From Candidatus Kaelpia imicola (GTDB lineage Bacteria > Omnitrophota > Gorgyraeia > Kaelpiales > Kaelpiaceae): a DNA stretch of 64,000 nt. Positions 165-20,896 of the stretch are shown in pieces. Made by a program: the position numbers and the translations under genes. Below the pieces are notes generated by a model. That model was given only the letters and a program-made list of their open reading frames with translations, was not told where the DNA came from and searched no databases. The first letter of the stretch is position 1. Each line of letters begins with the position of its first letter. The stretch lies in NCBI GenBank assembly GCA_030765505.1, contig JAVCCL010000032.1, positions 34,807 through 98,806 of the forward strand, in the 5' to 3' direction.

Positions 165-267
165 AATTTTGGGGGCAATTTGCATTTTATGTAGTATGGT
201 ATAAATATTGCACAAATATTGCATAAAATGTTTAAAATGAGTAAATTAAAAAAATTCAGAAATCGAC

Positions 268-296: not shown

Positions 297-456
297 GTAG
301 CAGGAGGTGGAAGGGCTTAAAGGTGAGACCATGAAGAGAATAAAGTTTAACAATATGATTTTCTGTATTATCGATGCTCGGGAGGGGCGTTGTCAAGATA
401 GATCAAGAAATTCAAATAAGTATGTGTTTAATTTAGTAAAAAAGGAGGAAGGTAAG

Positions 457-1131
457 ATGAAGAAATTTTTGGCACTGGTAGTTTTGGTGGCATTATGTAC
501 AACGCCTGCTTTTGGCCAAGTGGGTGACGGTTTTGTTGCTCCAGAGATAGCTAGTGATGATGTAGGCTTGGTGGCTTCTACGGCTGCTGCTCCATTTGTT
601 GTAGATTGGGGAACAAAAGCTGCATCTGCTTTCGGCAACGCAACAACATTTAGTGGGGTTATAGGTGGAGCTTTATGTGTAGCAATTAACATACAAGAAT
701 TAGACCCTTCATCTATTGATTTTACAAAAATTGAGATTGATTATGCTACTGGAGTACTTACTGCTTCTCCTGGAGCTCTTCCTACAGGTGTTGATTTAGA
801 TAAGTTAGCAGCAAGTATGAAAAGCTCTGTTAGTATTTCGGAAACATTATTAAGCTGGGATGCTAGCTCAGGTACTACTGTGAAGTTAGATGATAATGGG
901 AGCCCAGTAAATGAAGATGGAAAAGTTATTATTGATGCAGAAGGAAATACAGAAGATCCTACTGGATCAGTATCTACTTATGATTTAGCAAGCTATAAGG
1001 TGCAGTTACAGAAAGTTGAAAATTTTCAAGAAGCTCTTGGGCTAGCACGAACTACTAGTCAGAAAAAGACAGCCATTGCAGATTTAGCCGAAGCTGCTAC
1101 ATTACTTGTAAATATGGATAACGGATTTTAA
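457..1131 (+). CDS. secreted hypothetical protein (signal peptide, Ala/Thr/Gly-rich)
   Basis: ORF in track 307-1131. The internal ATG at 457 is preceded by AAAGGAGGAAGG (RBS) and gives MKKFLALVVLVALCTTPAFGQ, a signal peptide with an AxG-Q cleavage site. A hairpin terminator follows. Confidence 0.6.
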   Translation: MKKFLALVVLVALCTTPAFGQVGDGFVAPEIASDDVGLVASTAAAPFVVDWGTKAASAFGNATTFSGVIGGALCVAINIQELDPSSIDFTKIEIDYATGVLTASPGALPTGVDLDKLAASMKSSVSISETLLSWDASSGTTVKLDDNGSPVNEDGKVIIDAEGNTEDPTGSVSTYDLASYKVQLQKVENFQEALGLARTTSQKKTAIADLAEAATLLVNMDNGF

Positions 1132-1225: not shown

Positions 1226-4200
1226 ATGAGACAGATTAAAAGGAAAGCAAGTTTTAAAGTGCTTTCAATAATTTTTCTAGAATTTTTTCTCCTATCTCAA
1301 ATAGGCTGGGCTTCAGTTTCACAAGAGATGCTCTCTTCTTATGATCCTGGATTTACAGCTTCTTGTCCAATCAATACGAATAGTTCTTTCTCAATTAATA
1401 TTCCTCTCGAATATGAAGATAGTACTTTCTTTGCTTCTAGCGAGTCGACACTTGAAGAAATAAATGGTTTTACAATAATTCAATCTGATAGTAGTAATAA
1501 TATTCAACTTATAAACCAATATTTTTATGTCGAAATAGTTATTGCAGATAGTGTACCGCCGCTACAAGGAGTTGAGGATATACGTAATTATCTGGAAAAT
1601 CCAGTAGGAGTGCAGGAAATTCTTTTGGAAAGAATTAATGTAGATGAAGAAAAAGATGTTTTTTGTTATAGCTTTAAAGATGTTATTAATTCAGAAAATT
1701 TAGCAATAGAGAGGATTGAATTGGATGAGTCTTCAGGTCAAGTAAGCGTAGAAGGCGGTATAGTAATAGATTATTTAGAGGTTTCATGTGAGCTTGATAA
1801 CGGAGAATTAAACTATCCAGATACAGTAAATTCAATTTCTTCAGTGGAAAATTTTATTCAAATAGTTGGAACTACATATATGGAAGAAAATTATCCAGAG
1901 TTAGCCTCGCAATTGAATTTTTTCATGCATTTTGTTTTAAATAGTTATTTTAATAATGCTACAGGTAGTTGGCCTAAGTCTATTTCATCTCTCGAAGTTA
2001 GTTTTCCAGGTAATGATTACATTATAAGCTATGATAATCAGCATATGTCGATAAATTCTCTGGAAGAAGATTCAACAGATATGGATGTAACTATAAACAG
2101 TGTAGTTGAAATATCTCGAGGTCTCAATCTACCTGCCGAGTATACGCTGTCTTTTAGCAAAGACAGTGAAGCTTTACAGTCATTAAGTCATAAAATAACA
2201 TATTTCCCCGAAAGTGCGTTAGAAAATCCTTGGGAATCAATAGAGATTAGAGATTGCCAGACACAAAAATTGTTGTATAAGGCAGAGAGAGAGTTAAGCG
2301 AAGATGGTTTGCAGATATTGTCTTTTTCTGAAACGCAGTATGATTCTAATGAGGAGATAGTCTCTCAGAGGAAAACAGAGAGATTAGATGATGGTTCAAG
2401 CAGATATGTTCTTGCTGACAAATGGAATAAAATTATAATTTATTATGATGTTACAGAGAAAATAAGAAGAGAAGAGCATTATGTAATGAATCCAGCCGAA
2501 GGTGAATATCAACTAGATTACATGAAAAATGTTTCAGATGTTAATTCTTGGCAGAATGCCTCTGATGAAGTATTTCAACATTACTTTTATATAGTCGGAA
2601 ATGTATGGAGTTTTTCTGATCAAAATCTTGGATTAGGTGATATAACTTTAAGTCAACGCATAGACCAGGTTTTAATTAGTGCAGTAGCGTCTTCTGAAAC
2701 AGGCGAGGGGATTTATTACAACATGCTGGATATTGGTGGATACCATGGTGAATATTCCTCGTCCATATATCAAAGATTATATGAATATAGGGCATGTTTA
2801 ACAAGCGACGGTTCTGATTTAAAAGCATTGTTTGGTCAGGAATTACAGCGATATTTACCTCTTCGTCAAATCGAAACTGCGGATGGTTTAGTAGATGTAT
2901 GGGGGATTGTAGCATTTGAATCTGATAAAATTGATTTAGATAAAGCTAATATAAGAGATGCAATTTTAAATACTTCTTTAGAAAGCAAGGTTATGGATTT
3001 ATATGACATGATAATGGAAGAGAATGGTTCTTGGTTTACTCAATTGACGTCTGAGCAGAAAAGAGATGTATTTAGAAAATTTTTGGAGCCGTTAAAAATA
3101 GATGAAGAAGGTTTAATAAGTGCAGTCTTTGAAAGTGTTGATACTGAATACGAAACTTTTGTTGAAATTTTTGATAGATACTTTATGAAAGAAGTAGATA
3201 TTCCAAAATACGACGAGAGTGATTTTGCAGATAAATTTTTGTATATCCTTGGAGGGGCTAAAAGCTCTGATTCTCTCAACTCTTTCGTGGATACAATATG
3301 TTCTTATCAATCAAACATTCAAGCTTTTCCCGGGGATATTAGAATAGAAGAATTTTATATGGGTAAAGATAATTTTTATAATGACAGAGAATTGGCTTTT
3401 GTTGATGTTTATCAGGAGACAGCAGGAGAAGAGCGTAGATTATTGCAGCGCTGGGCGGGTGCTAATATTTATAAATTTACGGAATGGGATCAAGAAGGGA
3501 GTCCTATAGCTTGCGAGTTAGACGGGGAATTTATTTCTTTTCCTCACGAGGATATATTAAAAGCAGGCTCCCCTGGTGATTGGGAAGAGATGAATCAGGC
3601 GCCTAATAGTTTGTTTCCGATGATTCCCAAGGTTCCAGAGTGGATGTGTCATGGGAAGGTCGGTCTTACTCTTATAAAAAAGAGATATGCTACTGATGGG
3701 CTTAATGTTGCAGCTACCCCTGATTTTGAATCTTTCAGACCTGTTGAATTTGGTGATACATTTAACGAAAGCTATTTTACGCAAGATGAATTTTTGTCTA
3801 GAGATCCAGAGATACTTAAAACATTTTTAAATTTAAATACCGTAACCAGAGGTTTAATTGAAAAGTTTAATATTTCAATTTCAGAATTAGAAGGTAAGCC
3901 ACTCAGTGTTGTTTTTTACGAGATTAATCAAACTATAGCTGATAGATTAGGATTTTCCAATGAGATGAGAGAAGAGCAATTAGAACATCTTAGTGTAGTT
4001 AGGCGTGAATATTATCTTAGAGAAGTGCTTGGTATTACCGAAGAGTCTAAAATCGCTGCCTGTCTCTATGAAAGTAATGAAGTTATTGCTGAGGTCTTTA
4101 GAATGGAATCTATTGGATATAGTGAAGAGCAGATACAAGGTTTTTTGGCGATAGATGAATCTCTTGATGGAATAGCAAGCGAACTGGTTTATATGAGTAG

Positions 4201-5800
4201 GGCAGAGATCGAGGTAAACCTTGCAGAGTTTGGATATAGCTCTGAACAGGTAGATGAATTTTTTGCTATAGAAGATGCATGTCGGTTGGAATCGGAAAGT
4301 GTTTTGCAGCTTCTTAAAGAAGTATATGGAGATGATATTGAACAAATTATGATTACTGCTTTTGAAGATTCTATAAAAGGAACTCCGATGCAAGCATTGA
4401 TAGATAGTGAGGAGTATAGAGAATTTAAAGAAGAGGTTGGATTGATGGGGGTGATAACAAGTGATCCTGAAATAGCTAAAATAGTTTTAAATCGGCTATT
4501 GTTATATTACGATGATTATGAAGATATTGATTTAGATGAATTAATAACAGATTTTAATTCTATTGCAAGTAGAAATTCTGATGTAATAAAAGATTATTTA
4601 GACGTTGTATTAATTGGTACAGAAGATTTCAACGACTGGACCGATAAAGAAATAAGAAGTGCATTATCTTGTGCGTATTTAAAGACAAGAAGAGGGGAAG
4701 AGAGCGCAGACGATGCTTATGAACGGAGAGCAGATTTATTTAGCGCTTGGATGGAAGCAAATAGAGATGTAGGTTATCCTGCTTTTGGAGTAGCTCCGAC
4801 TCAGGATATAATGATTGCTCCTTATTCTGATCGTATGAACTGGGCTCAATTTGCAGGTTGGTCTTTAACGGGTTTAAGTGCTGCTTTTCTTGTTGCTTCG
4901 GGCATAGGTGCAATTTCTGCAGTTACTCTTCCTGTATGGTTAACTCCAATAGTTGCAAATGCAGGTCTTGCGAAAGTTGCTGCTTTTACTGTTGCAGGAA
5001 CATTGTTAACTGGAGTAATGACTGGATCATGGGCGCAAGCCCCATATGGAGGTATTCAGGGTTTTCTTCTAGGGATAACTTATCAAATTTTGCCTAGCGT
5101 TATAAGTGGAACATTAAGATTAGGACGTCCCTTGCTTGCAAAAATACTGGGAAGTACTGTTAGAGCGTCCAATTTCCTTTTGGAATCTGCTAGCCAAAGA
5201 GCGCTTCTAATACCTCTTATAAAGACAGCTACTGGAACAGCTTTTAAAGGACATAAAGTATTGACTTTAGCAGAACGTTTTGGTTGGTTTATTGGTAGTT
5301 ACAAGTTTATTTCTCAGCCTATAGCGGAAGGAGTGGCGAATATTGCTATGAGGAGAAAAGGTTTGGATCCTCAAGATTCTCAGAATCTTTGGATTCATGA
5401 ATTGGCTAATATAGGGGCATTATTAATTATGCCGTTATTTATACCTGGGTCTTGGGCGATGAATACAAGTGTTATATATAGCGGTGGCGAATATCAAGCA
5501 ATCAGACCGTTTACAACAGCTAATAACGTATCTCATTATATTGGAAATTGGACGACGCGGGGCAGTTTTCGTAGCTATGGTAGTTCTCAATTATCGGGGG
5601 CTATTGCTATGCCTTTGGGAGTACAAAGATTGCTTGAAGAATTAGATCAAGATGTAACAGGGATAGAGCTAGGGGTTGCATTAGATAGTTATGGTGTGGA
5701 AAATGAGGAATGGCGAGCAACTTTAAATACCGATTTTGATTCTTGGAAGATGGTATATGAAATTTTATCTGAACTAGGGGTGCTTGAAGATGGAGAATAA
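1226..5800 (+). CDS. giant membrane-anchored acidic protein (1524 aa), N-terminal TM/signal, C-terminal Gly/Ala-rich hydrophobic module
   Basis: Uninterrupted 4.6-kb ORF with RBS AAGGAG 9 nt upstream. N-terminal hydrophobic helix (VLSIIFLEFFLLSQIGWASV), a long D/E-rich region, and a C-terminal ~200-aa Gly/Ala-rich multi-helix hydrophobic segment (GWSLTGLSAAFLVASGIGAISAVTLPVWL...). Its stop overlaps the start of the next giant gene. No recognisable catalytic motif. Confidence 0.75.
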   Translation: MRQIKRKASFKVLSIIFLEFFLLSQIGWASVSQEMLSSYDPGFTASCPINTNSSFSINIPLEYEDSTFFASSESTLEEINGFTIIQSDSSNNIQLINQYFYVEIVIADSVPPLQGVEDIRNYLENPVGVQEILLERINVDEEKDVFCYSFKDVINSENLAIERIELDESSGQVSVEGGIVIDYLEVSCELDNGELNYPDTVNSISSVENFIQIVGTTYMEENYPELASQLNFFMHFVLNSYFNNATGSWPKSISSLEVSFPGNDYIISYDNQHMSINSLEEDSTDMDVTINSVVEISRGLNLPAEYTLSFSKDSEALQSLSHKITYFPESALENPWESIEIRDCQTQKLLYKAERELSEDGLQILSFSETQYDSNEEIVSQRKTERLDDGSSRYVLADKWNKIIIYYDVTEKIRREEHYVMNPAEGEYQLDYMKNVSDVNSWQNASDEVFQHYFYIVGNVWSFSDQNLGLGDITLSQRIDQVLISAVASSETGEGIYYNMLDIGGYHGEYSSSIYQRLYEYRACLTSDGSDLKALFGQELQRYLPLRQIETADGLVDVWGIVAFESDKIDLDKANIRDAILNTSLESKVMDLYDMIMEENGSWFTQLTSEQKRDVFRKFLEPLKIDEEGLISAVFESVDTEYETFVEIFDRYFMKEVDIPKYDESDFADKFLYILGGAKSSDSLNSFVDTICSYQSNIQAFPGDIRIEEFYMGKDNFYNDRELAFVDVYQETAGEERRLLQRWAGANIYKFTEWDQEGSPIACELDGEFISFPHEDILKAGSPGDWEEMNQAPNSLFPMIPKVPEWMCHGKVGLTLIKKRYATDGLNVAATPDFESFRPVEFGDTFNESYFTQDEFLSRDPEILKTFLNLNTVTRGLIEKFNISISELEGKPLSVVFYEINQTIADRLGFSNEMREEQLEHLSVVRREYYLREVLGITEESKIAACLYESNEVIAEVFRMESIGYSEEQIQGFLAIDESLDGIASELVYMSRAEIEVNLAEFGYSSEQVDEFFAIEDACRLESESVLQLLKEVYGDDIEQIMITAFEDSIKGTPMQALIDSEEYREFKEEVGLMGVITSDPEIAKIVLNRLLLYYDDYEDIDLDELITDFNSIASRNSDVIKDYLDVVLIGTEDFNDWTDKEIRSALSCAYLKTRRGEESADDAYERRADLFSAWMEANRDVGYPAFGVAPTQDIMIAPYSDRMNWAQFAGWSLTGLSAAFLVASGIGAISAVTLPVWLTPIVANAGLAKVAAFTVAGTLLTGVMTGSWAQAPYGGIQGFLLGITYQILPSVISGTLRLGRPLLAKILGSTVRASNFLLESASQRALLIPLIKTATGTAFKGHKVLTLAERFGWFIGSYKFISQPIAEGVANIAMRRKGLDPQDSQNLWIHELANIGALLIMPLFIPGSWAMNTSVIYSGGEYQAIRPFTTANNVSHYIGNWTTRGSFRSYGSSQLSGAIAMPLGVQRLLEELDQDVTGIELGVALDSYGVENEEWRATLNTDFDSWKMVYEILSELGVLEDGE

Positions 5801-8800
5801 AGGCCAAAAAAAATATTCTAAAAATAAATACTTTGCAAAAGTATTTAAGGATTGGTCTTTACAAGATTTTATAAAGAAGATAATACTTGTTTTAATTAGT
5901 GAGATATTTCTTGTAACACAGTTATGTTATGGAATAGAAATAACTACCGAACCAGATCAGCTTCCTCCTTTTTTCGGGGATGCTACTGACTTTGCTTTTC
6001 CACTCGATGAAACAAGTCTTTTCCCAGTTAGTCAGACTATTTCAGGTGCACCAAGCCAAGTAGGTACTCTTATATTTGATGCCGGCGATAATCAAATTGT
6101 GCCGGTTAATGTTGAAGAAATAACAGATGGAACATATCAGATTACTCTTCCTTTTGGTTCGGAAGAAGATCCTGTTTTTAACAATTTTCTTGTATCTGGA
6201 TATGAAGTTTATGAAAACGGATGGATACATGCTGATTCCTTGGCTTTAGTAGAAGAGGGTTCTTCATATATAACATATCGCAATTTAGACATGAAACCTG
6301 GTGAGTCTGGAGACGGAGAGAGTAGTGGTTTTATTATCTGGAATGCAGAATTTGAAGTCATTGACGGTACATTCGGGGTTATTGAAGAGGGTGAACTTAC
6401 ACAGTTTAGTTCTTATCAAACAAAGATACTTAAAAAAACAATGTTTAACAGCTATGATCCAGATGGACAAAGATATTTTGAGGGTGACAGAACTGATGAT
6501 GGCGGGCTTATTACAAGCCCTGAAGATTTCAGTGGGATATTTACTGATGATTTCAGGGAAAGCTATTTTAAATATCAGCGTGATTTGCTGAGAGGTCATA
6601 TTGATCCCAGTTTATTTGGTGAAATAGAACCGATTGCGTTTCGGATAAATTATGACGACCAGAAAGATCAGTATGATTTTGAAGCAAATATTAATATTAA
6701 TATTTATTCAATGCTTGCTTATTCTGGTTTTGTTTCTTTTAGTTCTGAATCAAATTTAAATAACATAACCTCTACGGCTATAATAATAAATGAAGAAGTT
6801 GATACAGGATTAGATGAAGAAGCTACTGCAATAATAGATGAAGAAGGAGGGGCAGTTTTAAGCGATGAAATAGAATATTTAAATTTTGGTGCTGGCCTTA
6901 AAGTGGAAGAAAGGTGGGGCATGGTCAATACTTTTACGACGCTTTTAAATAAAAATCTTATTGATGAGGACGGGAACGTTAAAATAAGAGTTAAAGTAGG
7001 TGATGGAACAGAGGGTGTAGAGTTTAGTGTTCCTTTTGTTTACTTGTTAGGAGATGTCCCTCCACCAAAAGAATACTCTCGACCCTCATATAGTGTTATA
7101 GACGATAAATATGACGACCTTACATATTTAATAATGCAGGATATTTGGGATGCGCTTAGATATGACATTATAAGAAAAGAACAAGATATGCAGGAACTAG
7201 ACGATATAATCCATTTACCTGGGTATCTTAAAGACTTAGCTTATTGGCATTTTAGGTATGATGAGACAGGTGATGAGACAGGTGAGGTAAAGAAAGGTTA
7301 TTATCTAGGTGATTTTGGAAGTGTTAGATTTGATGAGAATAGTTCCGAAGTTGTTTTTAATCTTGATTTTACTGAAGAAGAAAAAGAAGCGTGGTTGGGT
7401 TGGGTTTCTCCTGATTTGTATTTTTATGATCGAGACCCGAGTAAATTAACAGCGGCTTTAAATGAATATATTGGAGCAGCATTAGATCTCCCAGAAAAAC
7501 CTCAAGGTGTTATTGCAACGATTGAGCAGGTGCGGGAACAGGCTCTGAATGGAGAATATTATACGATTATTCTTGGCGAAAGATTAGATGATGTTACGAC
7601 TACCTTAGAGAGTTTTACAGTCGATGAGTTATATGAAAATAAAGAGGATTTATATTTTAAAAATCCATTCAGACAGCATGCCTTAAAATATCTACTGGAT
7701 AATGATTTGATAGATACATTAGGAAATGTTGCGGTATCTATTAATATTGACCAGAGTTCTCCTCAAGATGTAGTAGAAATAGTGCTTCCATATCAATACT
7801 TTATTTTATTTGCAGATCCATTACGAGAATCTCTTCCATTAGAATGGAGAGATGATGGAGGATCTCATGACGAAGCTTGTGATGTTTTTTATGATATTCT
7901 AGCAAATGTATCCGGGCGATTAGGTGCTAGAGGGAGAGTAGATATTGATTATGAAAGCAAAAGTTTAATTTATACAGGAAATGAAATAGAGTCTATTATA
8001 TCAACCCCAGAGATGGAACTTGAAATTGGTAGTCTTGTTGTAATATTAGCTGAGAGAGTCACTGTAGATAAAATGAATGATATAGAAATAATTCATAAGC
8101 TTCCAGAAGATGTCGAGTTAGATATGAATGCTATGTTTTTAGACTTAGCTAATGGAATGCTTGACGACCATAGCGTAGAAGAAGATGGTGAACTTGTAGA
8201 AGTTAAAGGACTAAATTCATTGCTTTATGATTTGGATGTTTTAATCGAAGAGGGTGATTGGTCAGAGACAGCTGTAGTAATCGATAAAATATCAGCCATT
8301 AGTCTAGATTTTAAAGAGAAGATGGAGTATATACGGGTCTGTGATTACTACGTTGATCGCTTAACATATATCCATGGAGGGAGTCGGAATGCAAAAATAT
8401 TATGGTGTATAAATATTTCACCCAACTCAGATGGAATAGAAAGCGATATTTATCCATTCATTGAAACACTGCAAAAGTTCTCCCAAGGTAATTGGGCAGA
8501 GGGCATGGAGATCTATAATAACCATGCTCAAGAGTATGACGATAGTCGTCACTTTATAACAGGTTTATTTGGTGAGCTTGATACTGAGATCTCAAGTCAG
8601 ATGAAGAAAGTAGCTGTTCGTGTAGGAATAGCTCGTGCGGCAACCTTTGTCATTTTAAGTATTGCATCTGCAAAACTGGGATTTCTTGCAGGTCGATTCT
8701 TAGGCGCTTGGTCTAAGACCCTTCCATTTATACAGAAGATTCAGGCGTCAACAAGTATCGGTGCACAGATGGCAAAAGGTACTTGGGCAGGATTTAAGGC

Positions 8801-11800
8801 GGTTACCAGGATTTTAGGTGTCTATGTAGATAATGCGACTGAAGCAGCACTAATGTGGCAGTCGTTGCTGCCATTTATGGGTAAAGCCGGTAGGATGCTG
8901 GGGAGTTTAAGTCCGAATTTATTTGGTATGGCGTTACGTTATGGAGTTAACGCTTCTATAGTAGGTACAGGTGCAGCAATGGGTTATCTAAAACCAGGGA
9001 GGAATTTATGGTCTTTCATGAATAATCCTGTTGGATTCTTAATCCCTGCGTCTGAACGTCTAGGTAATTTAGGAGATGTTTTTGAATTTATATCTGTTGC
9101 ATTGGATGGATTTAACTTTGCAAGGACTGGAAGATGGCCTACAAGATCTCCTATGCTAGATTTTTGTCGTAAATATGAGATCCATGTCCCACTTATTACA
9201 CAGATTCAAGAAAAGATAGAAGGCTTTAAAACAGAAGTAGCTTTGCAAAATGTGCTGAATAAATTTAAGACGGCTCGGGCAACTATACATCAGGCAAATA
9301 TAGTTTTTAGCGCAGGACTTTTTGCCGGCTTAGATGTAACTGCTCTAGAAGTGGAATCTTCTTCTACTTCAAGTAGCGTTGAGAGTCAGAGTGAATCAGA
9401 CGAAGAGCCCACTGCACAGTTTGTGTATTTTGCTGATTTAGAGAAGTTTCCGAATGAGGAGAGTTTTCTTGATTATATAAAAGGTTTTAAAGTACGAGTT
9501 AGTGGTGAAGTCAGAAACTTCTGGGATGTGTTATATGAAAAGAATGTTGACCAAAGTAAGACATTAACAGAAGCAGGATTTTTAAAACTTAAATATGAAT
9601 TGATTGGATTAACAGTAGAAGAATTACAAAGATTTCAGGAACTGAAAGGAGACGAAGCCGAAGAATTAATAAGTGCTGGAAATATGCCATTCTTTACTCA
9701 ATTTTACCGTGCTTTATCTGAAAATTTGAATAATCTAACAGATAGGACAGATGTTTCTTTAGCTCAGGCGTTGGCTAAAGTCTATACGGTTATGCACAAT
9801 ACCCTTAGCGTAGGAACAGGCATCCCTTTAAATCTAACATTCCCGCAACTGCTTGCAGCATACTTTGTATGTGAGGGATACAATGTAAGAAAAACTGATA
9901 CAGGTAAAATACGTTCAATTATAGATAAAGTCTTTAATGTATCTACAGGTGAAGGCAAAACCTATATAGAACCTGCAGCTGCAGCAGCGCTTGCATTGAT
10001 GAGGAAAGACGGGGAAAAAGCATTTGATACGGTGCTTATTGCATTCTCTTCTAATATTCTTTGTAAAAGAGATTTCGAGGGTAAAACTGATAACGACAGA
10101 GGTGTTAATATCGATATGCAGGAGTTTTATAGCGCCTTGGGCTTAAGAGTAGCCCATTTAGAGGAACCCCGTGATAATACAGTTAAATCATTTGTAGATT
10201 ACAAACGTAATTTACTAGAAAGGTTGAGAGGGCAGCATAAGCCAGACATTGTTTATGCACCTATTTCAAATATAATATTTCACATTGCTTATAAACTGGC
10301 TGATGAGGATTATTCAGAATTTGATAATTTAGACCGAGTAGCTGTAATTCTTGATGAAGTTGATGCTACTGCCTTAGAACAAGCACAGAGTCCATTTATA
10401 ATAAGCAGGGGTGGCGCAGAAACATACCGCGTTGGTACGCCAGAGGGAGATTTCTTTGAAGCTGTAGGTAGATATATTCGCGGATTGGATTTATTCGGCA
10501 AGTTTGGCTTGTGGGAATCATCACCTGAGGTAGATATTGATGCTTTGAAACAGGAAATCCAAGAATCTAGGGATATTAGCGATGAGGATAGAGAAAATCT
10601 GATAGAAGAATTAAGTGCAGGGAATAGTCCTTTGCAGGTATATCGTGACTGGAAGTTAAAAGTATCGTCTGAGTTAAGAGAGCAGATTCCAGAGATATTA
10701 GCTGACAATATTGCAGATTTAAATTACTCTGGCTTAATTGAGGCGCTGGGATCAGCCGAGAGTATAATACAAAATTATAAAGATAAGTACATTATAGAGT
10801 TTGAAAATGGTGTTCCAAGAGTAATTATTGTAAGTGAATTTAGTCACGAAGCACAGCCAGGTAAAAAATGGCAGAATTGGATACACCAAATGATAGAATC
10901 TTATGTAGAAGGGGTTCCTGTGAGTACGACTAGCTATACTTCAGGTTCAGTTATTATGTATGAAATACTTGCAAAAATGGGTTATGTTGTAGGGCTTTCA
11001 GGCACTGTGGATGTATTTCAAAAAGTTTGGCAAGATCTTCTTAATGCCGCAGTTATGACTTTTCCTGAAGCTTTAAATGATTTAGAGCAGTTTCGAAAGA
11101 CAACTCCTGTATATGGTTATACAAATTATGATCGTAGTCAACAGGATATGATTGGAAGCCTTATAGAGCATGCTATGCACGGCGAATCTGTTGTATTGGC
11201 AACATTAAAATATGAACAGAAGTGTGATGCTGTTTTGACATATTTTAGAGATCAGGGTGCCCAAATAGAAGAAGAAGCTATAGAGGAAACAGAGGGTAAG
11301 ATACGCTATAAGGTAACTTTGTCTACGGGAGATGTTCTGTATGTACAGAAATATGGAGCTCGGGAAGATTTAGACCCAGTGTTAAAAGGTATGATTGAAC
11401 AATTAGCAGGAGAAATGGGATTAATTACAATTGGTTCTCCGATTTTTGGTAGGGGAATTGACATTGATACATCACAAAGAATTTCTGAAGATTCTACTGA
11501 TAATAACGCGATATCTAAAAATGAATTGATTCAGGAAGTACTGGAGAATACATTAAGTGGTCAAGCTGTTGTATTTGCTTCAGAAAAGCATGAGGATGCA
11601 CTGAATGAATTCCTATCTTATTTAGCATTAGATGATATAGAAGCTGAGTCTGTAGAAGGCTTAGAAGGTGCTAGAAAAATTAGAATAGAGTATGAAGGTA
11701 AAGAAGTAGTATTGTTTAGTTACGGCACTAAAGAAGGTGATTTATCCCCAGAGGTAAAAGCAAAAATTCAAGCAGAGATAGACCAAGCTAATGAAATTAA

Positions 11801-12992
11801 TGGAGAGGGAGGGAGATTTATTATTTTCTGTTCACCAAATATTGGACAAGAGTTTAATGTTGGCGACTCAGATCAAGTATTGTATGAAATGAAAGGAGAG
11901 TGGGGTTCAATATATCGCAATCTTCATGTTGTTGCTGATGGATTAATGGCATTATGGCTTACACAGCAGATTATTGGAAGAGCAAAACGTGGAGGGCGAC
12001 CAGGGACTGCTGCAGTATTTTTCTCTACCGATTTTGTCAATGATCCAATTTGGCAGCAATATCAAAAATTGTTCATAGCTCATCCGGAATGGTGGGAAAC
12101 AATTGAATCAAGTGTTGTAAGATTGTCTGATTCAATTGGTGACGCAAGGATGAATGAATTTAGTTTTTTAGATGCACGTATTCAAGAAATTCAAGGTATT
12201 CATGTTCAATCAGTTCTTGGAACTTTGATGAATGTGATGGAGCAATACAAACCACTATATGAATTTCAGGTTGATTTTATACGGGGATTGGGTGAAAGAA
12301 TTAATGGCAATCTAACCCAAGAACAACAGCAGAAAATTCAGGAAATTCAGGAAATTCAAGAATCTAAGAATTTTACTGCCGAAGATAAAGAAGATTTAAT
12401 AGGGCAAATACATGCAAGGAATAATCCACATCAAGTGTTTAAAGAATTTAGAATATTTGAAACGCTAGGTGGAATAACAGTCGATAACTTAAAAGGCTGG
12501 ATTCAAAATGACTCTCTCTATTGTAGCGAAGAAACAAAAATTCAATTAATACAAACTTTAGAAAATGAGGATAATTTAATTTCTCCGCAACTGGTTTATT
12601 TAAGGTGGAGAATCTTGGATTCACCGCTATTATCAATAAATCAAAAATCCAACATTGAAGAGCTGTATACATTATTTGCAAACTCTGCAAGAAGTATTGG
12701 AAACAATAATTTGCCGGAGATTATTAATCAGTGTTTAGATGATGTAGGAAATGGAGACTTAAAAGCAATAATGTTAAAATATCTTACTCCTTCGGATCCT
12801 AATTCGCAAAATTCTCAAAGAGAGACAGCAACGAGTAGAGTTGTTCCTACATATAAATCAATGGTGTTGAATAATTTTGGTGGCGAACAAGCTGCTGTTC
12901 ATTATGGAATTAAGAGTGATTTTAATGACTGGCTCTTAGAAGAAGCAGCTGATATATATGAAATTTTAGTTATTTTGGATTTGGTGAACTGA
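5784..12992 (+). CDS. giant multidomain protein (2402 aa) with embedded SecA-like DEAD-box translocase motor
   Basis: 7.2-kb ORF; TTG at 5784 or, more likely, ATG at 5790 overlaps the upstream stop. It has an N-terminal TM helix ([17 protein letters not shown]), a ~900-aa acidic region, a central Gly-rich hydrophobic module ([28 protein letters not shown]...) and a poly-Ser/acidic linker. A SecA-like core follows. Its NBD1 motifs are STGEGKTY (Walker A), [17 protein letters not shown] and [26 protein letters not shown] (Walker B/DEVD). NBD2 matches are LSGTVD (compare MTGTAA), [11 protein letters not shown] (compare NMAGRGTDI) and [18 protein letters not shown] (compare [18 protein letters not shown]). 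Each was aligned by eye to the genuine SecA at 51090-53963. Confidence 0.8.
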   Translation: [2402 protein letters not shown]

Positions 12993-13011: not shown

Positions 13012-15936
13012 GTGTTATGCATTTTCACTGTGCTGGTAAGTCCGGGTTGGGCAGATAATATCTCTGGTTTTAAACAAATTATTTCGGAAAGACAAAACTG
13101 GAACTATATATATAATCAGATTATTGTTGGGTTTAAACATAATAGTAGCAATAAAGAGATAGAATCTTTTATTGAAGAGTATGGGTGTGAGCTGATGGCT
13201 CCGATTGATGAGTTTAGGGTTTACGCTTTAGTCTTACCTCGAGGAGTTTATTATAGCGAAGTGAAAAGAAGCTTTCTAAATGATAAAAGAGTAAGATATG
13301 TTTTACCCAGTTACTATATGCATGCGCAAAGCATGTCTGACTTAGAAGGCGTAGTAAAAAGAGCACGAGATGAAAACGAGAGTAGTTTAAATGAAATAGG
13401 ATTTTTACAAGCACAAGAGTATATGCAATTGTACAGTTCACTATTGCCTGAAAGTGGCGGTGTTGTATTTGCTCTTCTTGATAGCTCTGGTCTTCATCCA
13501 GAATTGATTCAACAGTTGAATGATGCAGGAATATATCGCAATGGAGTTTGTTTCCAAAGGAGTGTTGATAATAGTGTAAATGTGGTTAACAATATTGAAG
13601 AATATACAAATGGCCATGGTACTCAAGTTGCTACATTACTCAGCACTTTAGGAGAAGGTTCTGAAATTATGCACATACAGTTCGATGGTGGATTAGGAAC
13701 ATTTATCGAGGGGATTAAATATGCTATCAGAGAGACTAGAGATAATAAAGAGCGATTGATTATAAATTCTAGTATGAGCATTTCTTTAGAATCTTTTAGT
13801 TATGATACAATGAAGTTTTTATTAAGAGATTATTATTTAGCTCAATCAATTGAAGAAGCAAGAATCGATGGTCAGGATGATAAAGCAATATATGATAGCT
13901 ATATTGATTATCGTAATGAGGCTCGAATCAAATCTTATGGTATTGTTGACGAGATTTTTACAATGGTTGATTCTGGAATAATTAATAATTTTCAGAATTG
14001 GGATGAAAGTGATTGGGCAATTGTTAGAGAGAAGTTTTCTTTGTTTGACGAAGAGATAAGTTTACTTAAATATGCTGAACATGTTGCAAGACGCGATTTC
14101 CAGTATTTTGTAAAAAGTCCTCTTTATGAAGATTTTGAAGAATTTTCTCAACATGCAATTATTGTTTCTGCAGCTGGTAATTGTAATGATTCAGGCATGG
14201 CTTTACCTTCGAGTTATCCTGGAGTAATTGGGGTTGGGGCAAGCTATAATGATAATATTGCAAGTTATTCTCGCTATGGCAATGCGGTAGATTTATATGC
14301 TCCAGGAGGGTATGCCTATGGAGATGTTTGGACTTACGACATTCAGGACGGTAGTTTAATTGAAACTAAATCTAAGAGAGGAACATCCCTTGCAGCACCT
14401 TTTGTTACTGCAATGGTTGGCTTAATTTGGAATGAAAATCCAGATTTAACCCCAGCAGAAATGAGTAATATTATTATTGCAAGTTCTTGTAATATATTTG
14501 ATAGTAATTTGGAGATTTATTTTAAACAAATAGATGGGCAGCAAGCAGCTATTCTTGCTTGCGCATATTCTTCTATAAAAGATGTCATAGCATTAATTGA
14601 TGATTATACTTCCGATGAATTTGATTTATTGGAACAGATAAATCAAAATTTAATTTTTAGTCAAAAATTGATTTCAGAACAAGTTGAAAATAGGCTATTA
14701 AACGATATAGATCTTTTTATTTCGGGGGTGCTTACAGCGAAAGAGCTTGAGGTGAATTTTCTCACTCAGCTATGGAATTTGGAGTCAGATGTTGGCATAC
14801 GGGTAGCATCGGGATTAGCTATAAATTATCTTCAGGATGATAGAATTTTAAAATCTGTGCTGGAAAAAAGTATTTCTGGCACTTCGACAGATATAGTACA
14901 GAAAATGTTAGATATTGTAAGCAATGAGGATAATAATTTTGATATTTTTAAAATAGAGCATGTTTTTAAGTCGTATGTAGTATTGAGCGACTTATATCAA
15001 GATTTAAAAGATTCAACCATTTCCCAAAGTTCTTTTATGCAAAGTGTGGAATTAATTTTTGGTATGCAAAATAAAATGTTCGAGAAATATATTCCTCAAT
15101 TTGTGAGTATTATTAATAGATTTATAAATGCTGAAATAGATTCAAACCAAGCTCAGCAAATGGTGTGTAATATAGCGTGGGATGTATGTACATCATTAGG
15201 GGATGAAGATTCTAAAATAGCTATAGCATTATATGTTGATAGCTTAGATGATGTGGAGTTTTTAAAGAATCTTCTTCAGCATCAGTTTCCACAATTAGAC
15301 TCAGGAATAATGGATGTTATTATTCAAGAGTCTTTATTTGAATGTAGAGATACAGACTCTTTAACGTTGCATGTATTTGATGTAGCAAATACATTAAACT
15401 ACTTAAATGAAATGTTTACTGCTATTGAGAAATTTGATTTAGAGTGGAATAATGAAATAGATTATTCGGTAGATTATTTAAAGCTAAGTGATTTGGGTAA
15501 TTGGGAAGACTGGAGTAAATTTTTAGACCAAAATATTCAGCGGAAAGAGTACATGGAAAACTTAGAAGTCTATCAAGATGTAGAATTTTTTTATACAGGT
15601 TTAGTAGAAAATTTATGTTCAATTTTTTTGGAACAAAAAATAATATCTTCAGAGTTTCAGGATGCAATTAATGCTCATATTTGGGATTTTGTAAATGGAG
15701 ATATAGATATTATTGCTGCTCAAGGAAATATTTTGGATAGCATTGAACAGGAAGCAGAATTACCTCAAATTTTATTAGGTACAAGTATTATACGTAGCAT
15801 TAGGTGGGATGAAGTGGATAATATTAGCGTTCCAACGATAGAAACAAACACCTCTCTTACTGTTCCAGGAGTAGATACAGCTGTAATTGATCAGCAGTTT
15901 GGAAATATTGAATTTGATTTTAATCAATTTTTGTAA
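13012..15936 (+). CDS. subtilisin-like serine peptidase (S8 family) with ~500-aa C-terminal extension
   Basis: GTG start. Short N-terminal signal-like segment (LCIFTVLVSPGWA). Asp region VVFALLDSSG, His motif NGHGTQVATLL and Ser motif KRGTSLAAPFVTAM form a subtilase catalytic triad in canonical order. A long extension of unknown function follows. Confidence 0.75.
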   Translation: MLCIFTVLVSPGWADNISGFKQIISERQNWNYIYNQIIVGFKHNSSNKEIESFIEEYGCELMAPIDEFRVYALVLPRGVYYSEVKRSFLNDKRVRYVLPSYYMHAQSMSDLEGVVKRARDENESSLNEIGFLQAQEYMQLYSSLLPESGGVVFALLDSSGLHPELIQQLNDAGIYRNGVCFQRSVDNSVNVVNNIEEYTNGHGTQVATLLSTLGEGSEIMHIQFDGGLGTFIEGIKYAIRETRDNKERLIINSSMSISLESFSYDTMKFLLRDYYLAQSIEEARIDGQDDKAIYDSYIDYRNEARIKSYGIVDEIFTMVDSGIINNFQNWDESDWAIVREKFSLFDEEISLLKYAEHVARRDFQYFVKSPLYEDFEEFSQHAIIVSAAGNCNDSGMALPSSYPGVIGVGASYNDNIASYSRYGNAVDLYAPGGYAYGDVWTYDIQDGSLIETKSKRGTSLAAPFVTAMVGLIWNENPDLTPAEMSNIIIASSCNIFDSNLEIYFKQIDGQQAAILACAYSSIKDVIALIDDYTSDEFDLLEQINQNLIFSQKLISEQVENRLLNDIDLFISGVLTAKELEVNFLTQLWNLESDVGIRVASGLAINYLQDDRILKSVLEKSISGTSTDIVQKMLDIVSNEDNNFDIFKIEHVFKSYVVLSDLYQDLKDSTISQSSFMQSVELIFGMQNKMFEKYIPQFVSIINRFINAEIDSNQAQQMVCNIAWDVCTSLGDEDSKIAIALYVDSLDDVEFLKNLLQHQFPQLDSGIMDVIIQESLFECRDTDSLTLHVFDVANTLNYLNEMFTAIEKFDLEWNNEIDYSVDYLKLSDLGNWEDWSKFLDQNIQRKEYMENLEVYQDVEFFYTGLVENLCSIFLEQKIISSEFQDAINAHIWDFVNGDIDIIAAQGNILDSIEQEAELPQILLGTSIIRSIRWDEVDNISVPTIETNTSLTVPGVDTAVIDQQFGNIEFDFNQFL

Positions 15937-15950
15937 TTTAATTAATATGT

Positions 15951-17489
15951 ATGAAAGTATTGAGTAAAAGAAATATTATTTATTACGTAGGTTGTTTTTT
16001 AAGTATTTCCTTATTGTTTTGTTGCTTTTTTTTATCATATTCAGAAGGTAATGAGTTTAGTCAAGATAAATTAATCTCAGCTGTTTTGATTTTGACAGAA
16101 CAATGGGGTAGCTTGCTAGACAAAGAGCAACTAATAGAAGATATTGAAAAACTAACACCTTTAAAGGCGAAGGCTTCTAAAGAAAGTTTTATTGTAAATA
16201 TTGTCAGAGCTGTGCGGAAACAGGGAGTTTTTTTAGAAGCGTTTGCTTTAGAGTCTAAAGATATAACGAAACTTAAAGAAAATAAAACAGCGTTTATATC
16301 TTTACTCAAAAATGGAGATTTATGTTATGTTGTTAAAAATATAGAGATTAAAAATAATAAAGCTGTATTTAGTTGTATTTTGCCCGATAGAAAGGAAATT
16401 TTTATAGATGAACGTGATTTTTTTTCTTGTTGGGAAGGTATGGTTATTTCAAAACCGCTTGTTAATATTAAAGCAAAAAGATTACTGAATAAGGAGGGGG
16501 ATAATAAATTTGTTGCTCTTTATTTTTATCATTCAGGTGAAGATTTTAACTTATTGCGTAAAGTTTTAGAAAAATTAAAAGAAGAGGCGGAAAGGACAAA
16601 TAAGAAACTTATTTACATTGATGAATTAGGCTTAATTCCAGAAAGGTCTATTGAATCTTATATGAAGGTAAATCAAATTGGAGAAAAAGAGGCTTTTGAG
16701 CTAATTAAGAAGATGTTAAATGAAGATATATCTAATGTTGGAAAAGGAGTTGCTATTTTAGGTGAAACCAATCCATTCTATAGACAGCTTTATCAATATT
16801 TAGCAAAGAATAAGATTGAATCATACATGGAAGACTTGCGATATGATGCATGGAAAAAGATAGTTGTTTTTGACAGCATGGAATATTATAGCAAGGCTAT
16901 CAATTACTTTTTTTTCAACAATATTGATAAGTATATTAAATCTATAGAAAGATTTATTGAGGGATATTGGGAGTATAATATTAAAAGAAGAGATGATGAT
17001 TTTAGAAGTCAAATAAAAAAGATAGTCGCAAAACACCCCAACTCTCTCATTTTTACAATTAGGGGAATTGGGCATTATGGAATGGATAACGATATTAACT
17101 TAGATAATTTAGCAGTGGAAACTTTAGTATTTGGTCGTGGAATATTTGAAGATAATCTGTTGCACTCTCAGATGTATTATATATTGCTTTCGAATGATAT
17201 TGTTATGAAAGAGAACGATAAAAAGCTTGCTATTCTTAAAACATACTTCGAAGATACTTTACGAGCATATTTTGTAAAAAAAGGATTAAATATTCCTGAG
17301 GCGACACAGTTAGTATGCAAAATATCAAAACGGTTGAAAGAAAAAAATGTTTTAAAATTTTCACAAGCAATTTACTATGCTGTGATTAAACAACCGGAGC
17401 AATTGCAGGAAATGTGGGGTTTTACTTACAATTGGTTTAAAAATCAAGGTTTTATCAAAGAGGAAGATCTTAAAGTATTCCAGAATTAA
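15951..17489 (+). CDS. membrane protein with degenerate papain/C39-like domain (catalytic Cys/His not conserved)
   Basis: N-terminal TM (IIYYVGCFLSISLLFCCFFLSY). The segment ...NGDLCYVVKNIEIKNNKAVFSCILPDRKEIFIDERDFFSCWEGMVISKP has the spacing of the C39 His-box (HfvVl...DP..G...F...W.G), but with D in place of His and no N-terminal Cys box. Low-confidence fold assignment. Confidence 0.55.
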   Translation: MKVLSKRNIIYYVGCFLSISLLFCCFFLSYSEGNEFSQDKLISAVLILTEQWGSLLDKEQLIEDIEKLTPLKAKASKESFIVNIVRAVRKQGVFLEAFALESKDITKLKENKTAFISLLKNGDLCYVVKNIEIKNNKAVFSCILPDRKEIFIDERDFFSCWEGMVISKPLVNIKAKRLLNKEGDNKFVALYFYHSGEDFNLLRKVLEKLKEEAERTNKKLIYIDELGLIPERSIESYMKVNQIGEKEAFELIKKMLNEDISNVGKGVAILGETNPFYRQLYQYLAKNKIESYMEDLRYDAWKKIVVFDSMEYYSKAINYFFFNNIDKYIKSIERFIEGYWEYNIKRRDDDFRSQIKKIVAKHPNSLIFTIRGIGHYGMDNDINLDNLAVETLVFGRGIFEDNLLHSQMYYILLSNDIVMKENDKKLAILKTYFEDTLRAYFVKKGLNIPEATQLVCKISKRLKEKNVLKFSQAIYYAVIKQPEQLQEMWGFTYNWFKNQGFIKEEDLKVFQN

Positions 17490-19515: not shown

Positions 19516-19872
19516 GTGGGCAAATTGATTTACGATGGGATTGAAAGAAGACAGTGGTCTCGGGTTGATATGAATGTACCTCTTAAATTCAGAGAGGTAG
19601 GTGAATTCAGCCGTTCTCCATTAGATTCAGAGACAAGAGATATAAGTGAAGGCGGTATAAGATTTGCAACTGATAAATTTCTTCCTAAAGATAGTAAGCT
19701 TGTTGTAAACATGGATCTCAATGATATCCCGGTTGTTAAAGCAACTGTTAAGGTTGTTTGGTCGGTAAGAGATTCTCATACCAATATGTATGAGATAGGT
19801 GTTGAGTTTGATACGATTCCTTCAGAGGCAAGAGTTCAGCTTTCCAATATTGTCAGAAAAAACCTGAATTAA
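19516..19872 (+). CDS. PilZ-domain protein (c-di-GMP receptor-like)
   Basis: GTG start. RRQWSR (RxxxR) plus DISEGGIRF (D-x-S-x-x-G) form the bipartite PilZ c-di-GMP binding signature. 118 aa. Confidence 0.7.
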   Translation: MGKLIYDGIERRQWSRVDMNVPLKFREVGEFSRSPLDSETRDISEGGIRFATDKFLPKDSKLVVNMDLNDIPVVKATVKVVWSVRDSHTNMYEIGVEFDTIPSEARVQLSNIVRKNLN

Positions 19873-20894: not shown

Positions 20895-20896
20895 AT

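What the first reader, a model, noticed from the sequence alone, without database searches (positions are those of the whole stretch)
4840..9120. Paralogous Gly/Ala-rich hydrophobic modules at the C-terminus of giant protein 1 and the centre of giant protein 2
Both giant proteins contain a ~170-220-aa segment of low-complexity small-residue hydrophobic helices. In protein 1 it is GLSAAFLVASGIGAISAVTLPVWLTPIVANAGLAKVAAFTVAGTLLTGVMTGSW...; in protein 2 it is GIARAATFVILSIASAKLGFLAGRFLGAW...GVNASIVGTGAAMGYL.... Each is full of GxxxG/AxxxA-type spacings, in otherwise highly charged proteins. In protein 2 this module is followed directly by the cytoplasmic-type SecA motor and preceded by the acidic domain. 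That arrangement is consistent with a membrane-spanning conduit or pore-forming element that places the N-terminal 900 aa outside and the motor inside.
Basis: seen in the sequence. Interest (0 to 1): 0.55.

Follow-up and report, generated by a model that had tools for sequence, protein, structure and literature searches.

The report
Unrelated membrane anchors of two surface proteins
The two glycine/alanine-rich hydrophobic stretches are real and look like inner-membrane anchors of two neighbouring surface proteins of an Omnitrophota bacterium, one carrying a SecA-like ATPase. They are not detectably related to each other, and this anchor-plus-SecA layout has already been described for the giant proteins of this phylum.

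Summary
The window comes from a Candidatus Kaelpia imicola (Omnitrophota) genome. Both segments exist where stated. They are G/A-rich, almost free of acidic residues and net basic, inside very acidic proteins.

The claim that they are paralogous fails:
- BLASTP between the proteins gives E 0.52.
- A profile of the protein-2 module family recovers protein 2 at 1.6e-33, but scores protein 1 no better than its own shuffles.
- hhalign gives a probability of 0.05%.
- GxxxG/AxxxA spacings are not above what the composition predicts.

The two architectures also differ. The protein-2 module is one conserved transmembrane helix followed by about 150 aa of basic juxtamembrane domain with invariant polar residues (NNPxGF…GNLGDxxEF). 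Seven relatives were found. Three of them carry the divergent SecA-like motor after the module. Protein 1 has 3–4 transmembrane-like helices around a basic loop and has no homologues.

A pore or conduit is not.

The operon (two surface proteins, an S8 peptidase, a C39-like protein, then PilZ) looks like a small, split version of the Omnitrophota giant-gene loci described in 2023. The only thing the two proteins share is an N-terminal leader motif.

Verdict: a new member of a known kind, of modest interest.

The parts
1226..5800 (+). P1: 1524-aa acidic surface protein (NCBI P9L98_05135, hypothetical). No homologue other than itself was found.
   Evidence: only itself among 5.8e9 clusters; no family
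1265..1315 (+). P1 N-terminal leader with the motif IIFLEFFLLSQIGWA. The same motif type occurs in P2 and its relatives.
4838..5461 (+). P1 hydrophobic module (aa 1205-1412). Transmembrane-like segments: aa 1217-1235 (ΔG 1.3), 1251-1269 (3.3), marginal 1279-1297 (5.6) and 1388-1406 (4.7). Strongly basic loop at aa 1298-1387.
5462..5797 (+). P1 C-terminal tail of about 110 aa, polar then acidic. In the 4-helix model it is predicted to lie outside.
   Evidence: inference from helix parity and the positive-inside rule
5784..12992 (+). P2: 2402-aa protein (NCBI start is ATG 5790, 2400 aa, P9L98_05140). It overlaps the P1 stop by 11-17 nt.
5880..5936 (+). P2 N-terminal leader / signal-peptide core: IILVLISEIFLVTQLCYGI.
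5946..8585 (+). P2 acidic ectodomain (aa 55-934). Parts are homologous to the N-terminal regions of P0005 and P0007.
8637..8693 (+). P2 single conserved transmembrane helix (aa 952-970, ΔG 3.1). The equivalent segment in relatives scores ΔG 2.0-4.5.
8694..9158 (+). P2 conserved basic, G/A-rich juxtamembrane domain (aa 971-1125). Signatures: G+PGA, LRxGxNAxxVG, NNPxGFLxP, GNLGDxxEF.
   Evidence: leave-P2-out HMM hits P2 at 1.6e-33
9354..9428 (+). Ser/Glu-rich low-complexity linker between the module and the motor.
9633..12167 (+). Divergent SecA-like ATPase. Walker A is STGEGKT at aa 1387 and DEVD at aa 1523. It has a PPXD-like insert and a tandemly duplicated NBD2 half. No scaffold/wing domain.
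13012..15936 (+). S8 subtilase-like peptidase, 974 aa, 19 nt after P2.
15951..17489 (+). 512-aa protein with an N-terminal transmembrane segment and a weak C39-peptidase-like region (below the Pfam cut-off).
17587..19296 (+). 569-aa secreted or anchored protein of unknown family.
19516..19872 (+). PilZ-domain protein downstream of the operon. PilZ genes are also reported downstream of Omnitrophota giant genes.
   Evidence: bioRxiv 10.1101/2023.11.21.568195
51090..53963 (+). Canonical full-length SecA of the same genome (DEAD, PP-binding, P-loop, scaffold/wing and SEC-C domains). It shows that the P2 motor is an extra, divergent copy.

Best explanation
The two modules are analogous, not homologous. 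They are inner-membrane anchors of two co-transcribed, signal-peptide-bearing, highly acidic surface proteins of an Omnitrophota bacterium.

**P2.**
- The module is a single G/A-rich transmembrane helix.
- It is followed by a conserved, basic, moderately hydrophobic juxtamembrane domain of about 150 aa. This domain belongs to a rare unnamed family with NNPxGFLxP and GNLGDxxEF signatures.
- I infer that the module lies at or on the cytoplasmic face and tethers the divergent SecA-type ATPase, which lacks SecA's own scaffold/wing domain, to the membrane.

**P1.** The anchor is 3-4 helices flanking a 90-aa basic cytoplasmic loop.

**Why the compositions look alike.** Richness in G and A, depletion of D and E, and net positive charge are what transmembrane helices plus positive-inside loops look like against a very acidic background.

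**Inferred function.** The tethered motor helps export or handle the large acidic ectodomains, either its own or P1's. Both carry the same leader motif. The adjacent S8 and C39-like proteins then process them. This would be a small, multi-gene version of the Omnitrophota giant-protein system.

**Shown:** composition, lack of homology, family conservation, hydropathy and charge pattern, SecA similarity, gene order.
**Inferred:** actual topology, membrane tethering as the module's role, and any export function.
For: **Source and composition**
- Source organism.
- Composition contrast between modules and the rest of the proteins.

**The P2 module family**
- Relatives: P0003, P0005, P0006, P0007, P0009, plus P0034 found by cluster look-up and read by eye only.
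- The four module-region hits (P0005, P0006, P0007, P0009) are 31-36% identical, with E down to 1e-16 in a library of 1.84e9 proteins.
- 16 columns are invariant.
- A profile built without P2 recovers P2 at 1.6e-33.
- In every member checked there is one transmembrane-grade segment at the module start, with a charge flip across it. P0034 was judged by eye.

**Calibration of the ΔG scan**
- At threshold 3.4: 0 segments in 9027 aa of soluble sequence, 38 in 1907 aa of membrane proteins.
- P2 aa 952-970 (3.1) and P1 aa 1217-1235 and 1251-1269 (1.3, 3.3) pass this threshold.

**Module followed by motor**
- The architecture recurs in P0003 and P0034.
- The same module precedes a different C-terminal domain in P0005, P0006, P0007 and P0009.

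**The motor**
- It is SecA-like but lacks SecA_SW.
- The canonical SecA lies elsewhere in the window.

**Shared features and context**
- Both proteins carry the same leader motif, and it is found nowhere else in the window.
- The genes are tightly packed or overlapping.
- West-Roberts et al. 2023 describe transmembrane regions next to divergent SecA domains, C39/S8 peptidases and downstream pilZ genes in Omnitrophota giant genes.
Against: - No trained topology predictor could be run. The transmembrane calls rest on a simple, additive hydrophobicity scale.
- The P2 helix contains a Lys (K964) and scores only 3.1.
- The post-helix domain has GRAVY 0.2-0.45. That is too hydrophobic for an ordinary soluble domain, so part of it could be membrane-embedded or re-entrant.
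- P0034 has weak fn3-like domains between the module and the motor. These are usually extracytoplasmic.
- AlphaFold models of both modules were uninformative, with pLDDT 37 and 41.
- P1 has no homologues, so a very remote relationship cannot be excluded. The pairwise score is marginally above shuffles (p 0.02-0.04).
- No protein longer than 3155 aa was among the 32 hits of the sensitive search. A specific relationship to the giant proteins is therefore not shown.
Confidence: 0.6

Rival explanations
1. The two modules are paralogous membrane-embedded helical bundles. They associate to form a conduit or pore through which the tethered SecA-like motor pushes substrate.
For: - The best BLASTP alignment between the two whole proteins falls between the two modules.
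- The Smith-Waterman score is marginally above shuffles.
- The two compositions are nearly identical.
- The genes overlap and share a leader motif.
- The post-helix domain is unusually hydrophobic.
- The motor lacks the SecA domains that normally dock on SecY.
Against: - The family HMM, hhalign and the composition-matched shuffle test show no signal.
- The number of transmembrane-grade segments differs: 1 against 3-4.
- None of the P2 family signatures is present in P1.
- Relatives of P2 occur without any P1-like neighbour.
- The invariant residues of the P2 module are polar or charged.
Confidence: 0.1
2. The P1 C-terminal module is a membrane-inserting toxin domain of the colicin or glycine-zipper type. 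It would be delivered to the prey or host membrane by a secreted adhesin-like protein, and would not anchor P1 in the producer's own membrane.
For: - The domain order (a large secreted N-terminal region followed by a C-terminal G/A-rich hydrophobic domain of about 200 aa) resembles pore-forming bacteriocins. This is my own knowledge.
- Omnitrophota are thought to be predatory or epibiotic.
- P1 is an orphan, as fast-evolving effectors often are.
Against: - No match to any pore-forming family in Pfam at E ≤ 1, and none in the PDB.
- No small immunity-like gene lies between P1 and P2, because the genes overlap.
- The basic 90-aa loop between hydrophobic segments fits the positive-inside topology of a resident membrane protein.
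Confidence: 0.1
3. The modules are homologous, but have diverged beyond what can be detected with one orphan sequence and a 6-7-member family.
For: - The pairwise score is marginal, p 0.02-0.04.
- There are loosely similar local patterns (GRPxLA; ERxG…FIS; GxWxTR).
- SecA domains of this protein class evolve very fast.
Against: - The similar patterns are not all colinear.
- The profile score of P1 equals that of its shuffles.
- The architecture differs.
Confidence: 0.15

Closest known systems
Omnitrophota giant proteins ('Archaeovorin' and 'Dockerin-type'), West-Roberts et al. 2023, bioRxiv 10.1101/2023.11.21.568195
   Same: - Same phylum.
- Signal peptide and extracellular region.
- Transmembrane anchor directly before a divergent SecA_DEAD / preprotein-binding domain that lacks scaffold and wing.
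- C39 and S8 peptidase functions.
- A pilZ gene downstream.
- A separate canonical SecA in the same genome.
- The authors already proposed that the adjacent transmembrane regions anchor the SecA-like domain.
   Different: - The proteins here are 1.5 and 2.4 kaa, not over 10-80 kaa.
- The S8 and C39-like parts are separate genes, not domains of one polypeptide.
- There is one transmembrane helix rather than 'numerous' ones.
- No carbohydrate-active or dockerin domains were detected.
- No type II / type IV secretion cluster is visible in the 1.2 kb upstream.
- No giant protein appeared among the sequence hits, so direct kinship is untested.
Canonical SecA preprotein translocase ATPase (in this window at 51090..53963)
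   Same: Walker A (GEGKT), the DEVD…SPxIIS motif, GxSGT, GRGxDI and the arginine-finger region align colinearly.
   Different: - 21% identity.
- No scaffold/wing domain or SEC-C.
- The NBD2 half is duplicated, with a degenerate second copy.
- It is fused behind a signal peptide, a 900-aa ectodomain and a transmembrane module.
Type I (single-pass) membrane proteins with a positive-inside juxtamembrane region
   Same: A cleavable-looking signal peptide, a large ectodomain, one hydrophobic helix, and a charge flip to net positive after it.
   Different: The juxtamembrane region is a conserved domain of about 150 aa with invariant polar motifs and intermediate hydrophobicity, not a short stop-transfer stretch.

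Membership tests
Omnitrophota giant-protein-type SecA fusion (West-Roberts 2023) | Divergent SecA_DEAD (plus preprotein-binding) domain lacking the scaffold/wing domain | tested here: met
   - SecA_DEAD E 4e-8.
- SecA_PP_bind only E 0.04, below the cut-off.
- No SecA_SW hit at E ≤ 1.
- The canonical SecA in the same window has all of these domains.
Omnitrophota giant-protein-type SecA fusion (West-Roberts 2023) | Transmembrane region adjacent to (N-terminal of) the SecA-like domain | tested here: met
   Transmembrane-grade helix at aa 952-970, about 300-400 aa before the motor.
Omnitrophota giant-protein-type SecA fusion (West-Roberts 2023) | Associated C39 and/or S8 peptidase domains | tested here: inconclusive
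   Both are present as separate downstream genes, not as domains of the same protein. S8 is clear (E 2.6e-22). C39 is weak (20.9 bits, below the cut-off of 22).
Omnitrophota giant-protein-type SecA fusion (West-Roberts 2023) | pilZ gene(s) immediately downstream | tested here: met
   PilZ ORF at 19516..19872, E 1.4e-15. It lies after three intervening genes.
Omnitrophota giant-protein-type SecA fusion (West-Roberts 2023) | Giant length (over 10,000-30,000 aa) with numerous transmembrane helices | tested here: not met
   2402 aa. One internal transmembrane-grade segment plus the leader.
Omnitrophota giant-protein-type SecA fusion (West-Roberts 2023) | SecA domain falls in the giant-protein clade, separate from canonical SecA | not tested
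   No giant-protein sequences could be retrieved. The closest motors are P0003, P0004/P0034 and P0008 (at most 3155 aa; P0003 and P0008 are from Omnitrophota genomes). All are closer than canonical SecAs.
Canonical SecA | NBD1 and NBD2 motor motifs | tested here: met
   Colinear alignment to SecA residues 98-670, E 3e-9. PDB SecA hits at E 7e-5.
Canonical SecA | Helical scaffold / wing domain and C-terminal SEC-C | tested here: not met
   No Pfam match in aa 2040-2402 at E ≤ 1.
P2-module family (unnamed; alignment A1) | One transmembrane helix, then the G+PGA, LRxGxNAxxVG, NNPxGFLxP and GNLGDxxEF motifs | tested here: met
   For P2: the leave-one-out HMM gives E 1.6e-33, with 16 invariant columns.
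P2-module family (unnamed; alignment A1) | The same signatures in the P1 module (the paralogy claim) | tested here: not met
   - HMM E > 20.
- hhalign probability 0.05%.
- The real score is no better than 198-342 of about 920 block shuffles.
Pore-forming colicin / glycine-zipper toxin domains | Sequence match to a known pore-forming domain family | tested here: not met
   No relevant Pfam hit at E ≤ 1-5 for either module or for the family members. Nothing relevant in the PDB.

The most novel reading that the evidence does not exclude
The conserved P2-type module (a transmembrane helix plus a basic, G/A-rich, polar-motif domain) is not a passive tether. It is a dedicated membrane-embedded partner of the fused SecA-like motor. 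Together they would form a self-contained, SecYEG-independent export device for very large acidic surface proteins in Omnitrophota. This would be the minimal core from which the giant-protein systems are built.
Probability: 0.08. Interest if true: 0.8.

Novelty: new member of a known kind. Interest (0 to 1): 0.3.

Why it matters
How Omnitrophota export and anchor their enormous surface proteins is unknown, and so is what the divergent SecA-like domains in those proteins do. A 2.4-kaa protein with the same logic is far more tractable than a 40-85-kaa giant. It has a leader, an ectodomain, one transmembrane helix, a conserved juxtamembrane domain and a SecA-like motor, with the peptidases encoded as separate genes. 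It could be expressed, topology-mapped and assayed for ATPase activity. The unnamed module family and the shared leader motif give concrete handles for that work. The specific claim of paralogous pore modules, however, does not hold.

Tried and rejected
**Word-index homology searches**
- Whole P2 and whole P1 each returned only themselves.
- The search with alignment A1 returned nothing, not even P2 itself.

**Collection scans**
- Genome-collection scans with the P2 C-terminal 1500 aa and with the module core found no relatives.
- The metagenome scan returned only the known P0007 contig and a near-duplicate.
- Two viral-contig scans found nothing.

**Structure prediction**
- AlphaFold2 of the P2 module with the 6-sequence alignment gave pLDDT 37.
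- AlphaFold2 of the P1 module alone gave pLDDT 41.
- Both models are all-helical but unusable, so no fold search was run.

**Library searches**
- The PDB sequence and profile searches gave only chance-level hits.
- The Pfam scan of all family members, NCBIfam and PADLOC gave nothing relevant for the modules.

**Neighbours of P2 relatives**
- I looked for a P1-like partner next to P2 relatives in L001, L004 and L007 and found none.

**Readings rejected**
- A frameshifted single giant gene. P2 has its own leader with the family motif and its own start codon overlapping the P1 stop.
- A prepilin (class III) signal. There is no G/A followed by F/M cleavage context, and the Glu is not at +5.

Full report
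**Source and layout**

The window is from a metagenome-assembled genome of Candidatus Kaelpia imicola, phylum Omnitrophota. The organism comes from Ace Lake, Antarctica (PMC8542988). The flagged interval covers the C-terminus of ORF 1226..5800 (P1, 1524 aa) and the first 1112 residues of ORF 5784..12992 (P2, 2402 aa; NCBI uses the ATG at 5790).

The P2 start overlaps the P1 stop. P2 is followed at gaps of 19, 14 and 97 nt by three genes:
- an S8 subtilase-like protein;
- a 512-aa protein with a weak C39-like region;
- a 569-aa protein of unknown family.

A PilZ gene comes next. A strong terminator hairpin at 1143-1174 separates this block from the small secreted-protein gene upstream.

**The observation**

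The compositional contrast is real and strong:

| Region | G % | A % | D+E % | Net charge |
|---|---|---|---|---|
| Both modules | about 11 | 12.6-12.7 | 3-4 | positive |
| Rest of both proteins | 5-7 | 5-6 | 18-19 | negative |

The 'GxxxG/AxxxA' spacing is not more frequent than in shuffles of the same composition. It follows from the G/A richness and is not an independent signal.

**The SecA-like motor**

The motor after the P2 module is genuine but divergent:
- Pfam SecA_DEAD, E 4e-8.
- NCBIfam SecA, E 7e-11.
- PDB SecA chains, E 7e-5.
- A colinear alignment at 21% identity to this genome's own canonical SecA, E 3e-9. That SecA lies at 51090..53963 and has all five SecA domains.

P2 has no scaffold/wing domain or SEC-C.

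**Are the modules paralogous? No detectable homology.**

- BLASTP of the two proteins does place its best alignment between the two modules, but at E 0.52.
- A Smith-Waterman score of 53 compares with 37±6 for shuffles, p about 0.02-0.04. The reversed sequence scores 44.

The decisive test needed a profile. A full HMMER scan of 1.84 billion representatives with P2 aa 881-2080 found real relatives of the module region: P0005, P0006, P0007 and P0009, 31-36% identical, with E down to 1e-16. It also found motor relatives: P0003, P0004 and P0008. On inspection P0003 carries the module as well.

The six-sequence alignment has 16 invariant columns and clear signatures: G+PGA, LRxGxNAxxVG, NNPxGFLxP and GNLGDxxEF. 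An HMM built without P2 finds P2 among all window ORFs at 1.6e-33. P1 scores below zero, with E above 20. hhalign gives a probability of 0.05%. The real P1 module also scores no better than its own block-shuffled versions: 342 of 936 and 198 of 914 shuffles score at least as high.

The caveat is that P1 is an orphan and cannot contribute a profile of its own.

**Are they membrane segments? Partly.**

No trained topology predictor was available. I used an additive Hessa-type ΔG scan over 19-residue windows and calibrated it on this genome:

| Threshold | Segments in 9027 aa of soluble sequence | Segments in 1907 aa of MurJ, FeoB, Wzx, Lnt, ArsP |
|---|---|---|
| 3.4 | 0 | 38 |
| 4.8 | 1 | 49 |

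- P2 has exactly one internal segment under these thresholds: aa 952-970, ΔG 3.1.
- P1 has aa 1217-1235 (1.3), 1251-1269 (3.3), 1388-1406 (4.7) and a marginal 1279-1297 (5.6).
- In every P2 relative the same single segment is conserved at the start of the module (ΔG 2.0-4.5). Net charge flips from negative in the 150 aa before it to positive in the 150 aa after it.

Together with the N-terminal signal peptide, this gives a type-I-like topology: ectodomain out, everything after the helix in.

The remaining ~150 aa of the P2 module carry invariant R, N, D and E residues. Their GRAVY is 0.2-0.45, between this genome's soluble proteins (−0.2 to −0.7) and its membrane proteins (0.85-1.1). I read this region as a conserved juxtamembrane or interfacial domain, not a helix bundle spanning the bilayer. 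A re-entrant or oligomeric embedded structure cannot be excluded.

In P1, a 90-aa loop with 13 K/R residues (aa 1298-1387) sits between the third and fourth hydrophobic segments. That fits a four-helix topology (out, in, out, in, then a loop, then out).

AlphaFold2 gave unusable models for both modules, with pLDDT 37 and 41.

**What the family shows**

- A cluster mate of P0004, called P0034 (1947 aa), is a full-length P2-like protein. It has a leader, an ectodomain, the module, two weak fn3-like domains and a SecA-like motor.
- P0003 is a fragment from an Omnitrophota genome with the module, a linker and the motor.
- P0005, P0006, P0007 and P0009 have the same leader/ectodomain and module, but a different C-terminal domain and no motor.

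So the module is a conserved joint between variable outside and inside parts, and the module-then-motor order recurs in three proteins. None of the relatives whose neighbourhoods could be read has a P1-like neighbour. This argues against an obligatory module-module pair.

**What P1 and P2 do share**

They share an N-terminal leader motif:
- P1: IIFLEFFLLSQIGWA
- P2: VLISEIFLVTQLCYG
- P0007: VIICELFIVTQISYA
- P0009: IVFVELFVLSQDGFS
- P0034: TIIELFLFNQFSYA

The motif E[LIF]F[LIVF][LVI][ST]Q occurs only in these two leaders among 197 ORF pieces of the window. This suggests a common export or sorting route.

**Comparison with what is known**

West-Roberts et al. (bioRxiv 10.1101/2023.11.21.568195) report the following for Omnitrophota giant proteins:
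- Most carry divergent SecA DEAD / preprotein-binding domains without scaffold and wing.
- C39 and S8 peptidase domains are common.
- pilZ genes follow the giant genes.
- Canonical SecA is encoded separately.

The present locus has all of these elements. The difference is that it is spread over genes of 0.5-2.4 kaa instead of one polypeptide of 10-85 kaa.

Kinship to the giants is not demonstrated. No protein longer than 3155 aa was among the 32 hits, and no type II / type IV secretion genes are visible in the short upstream stretch.

I therefore file it as a new, small, split member of a known kind. Two points appear to be undescribed: the conserved juxtamembrane domain family, which has no Pfam, NCBIfam or PDB match, and the leader motif.

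**Mechanism**

Most likely (confidence about 0.6), both modules are membrane anchors that look alike because they obey the same physical rules. The P2 anchor plus its juxtamembrane domain holds a SecA-type ATPase at the cytoplasmic face. That it assists export or processing of the acidic ectodomains is inference only.

Rivals, each at about 0.1-0.15, are:
- a prey-directed pore-forming role for the P1 C-terminus;
- homology that exists but is undetectable.

Noticed in passing
window 1265-1315 (P1 aa 14-30) and 5880-5936 (P2 aa 33-51); also the N-termini of P0007, P0009 and P0034: A shared N-terminal leader motif, (I/V)xxxE(L/I/F)F(L/I/V/F)(L/V/F)(S/T/N)Q-xx-(W/Y/F)-(A/G/S). A Glu sits inside the hydrophobic core, and a signal-peptidase-like site follows directly. 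In the window it occurs only in these two adjacent genes. It may be a dedicated sorting signal.
   Followed up: partly
window 11133-11483 and 11511-11879 (P2 aa ~1784-1900 and ~1910-2032): A tandem duplication of the N-terminal half of the SecA NBD2-like domain. The local alignment scores 110 against 31±5 for shuffles. In the second copy the GRGxDI motif is degenerate (GQEFNV).
   Followed up: partly
window 10548-10658 and 12345-12455 (P2 aa 1589-1625 and 2188-2224): An internal 36-aa repeat (QEIQES..ED+E.LI....N.P.QV…). One copy lies in the PPXD-like insert of the motor and one in the C-terminal region. Score 92 against 35±6 for shuffles.
   Followed up: partly
window 51090-53963: The canonical full-length SecA (all five Pfam SecA domains) lies directly after prfB (50247-51080). 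The genome therefore has a normal SecA as well as the divergent fused copy.
   Followed up: yes
window 19516-19872: A PilZ-domain gene lies just downstream of the operon. This matches the pilZ genes reported downstream of Omnitrophota giant genes.
   Followed up: partly
window 197-222, 269-298 and 19869-22243 (- strand): A sigma-54-like -24/-12 element (TGGTATAAATATTGCA) and a near-consensus sigma-70-like TTGACA-N17-TATAAA lie upstream of the small secreted-protein gene. rpoN lies at the other end of the gene block, with an enhancer-binding protein whose AAA+ match starts at residue 11, leaving no room for an N-terminal sensory domain. Window-wide, the sigma-54 pattern is only slightly enriched (41 matches against 28±5).
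   Followed up: partly
window 307-1131 (likely true start ATG 457): This ORF probably starts at ATG 457, behind an AGGAGG ribosome-binding site. That gives a secreted A/T/S-rich protein of about 224 aa (signal MKKFLALVVLVALCTTPAFG). It is followed by a strong terminator at 1143-1174.
   Followed up: no
P0034 aa ~900-1100 (L007 ~5090-5690): This P2-like relative has two weak fn3-like domains between the membrane module and the SecA-like motor. In the inferred topology that is on the cytoplasmic side, which is unusual for fn3 and is a mild caution about the topology model.
   Followed up: no
P0005, P0006 and P0007 C-termini: The motor-less relatives share a different conserved C-terminal domain of about 370 aa (ending …RLSFRFDL…LDITSPYI…) that has no family match.
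   Followed up: no
window 60288-61346 (- strand): An integrase-core (rve_3) transposase-like ORF. Local GC skew is reversed here, as it is at 20-22 kb.
   Followed up: no
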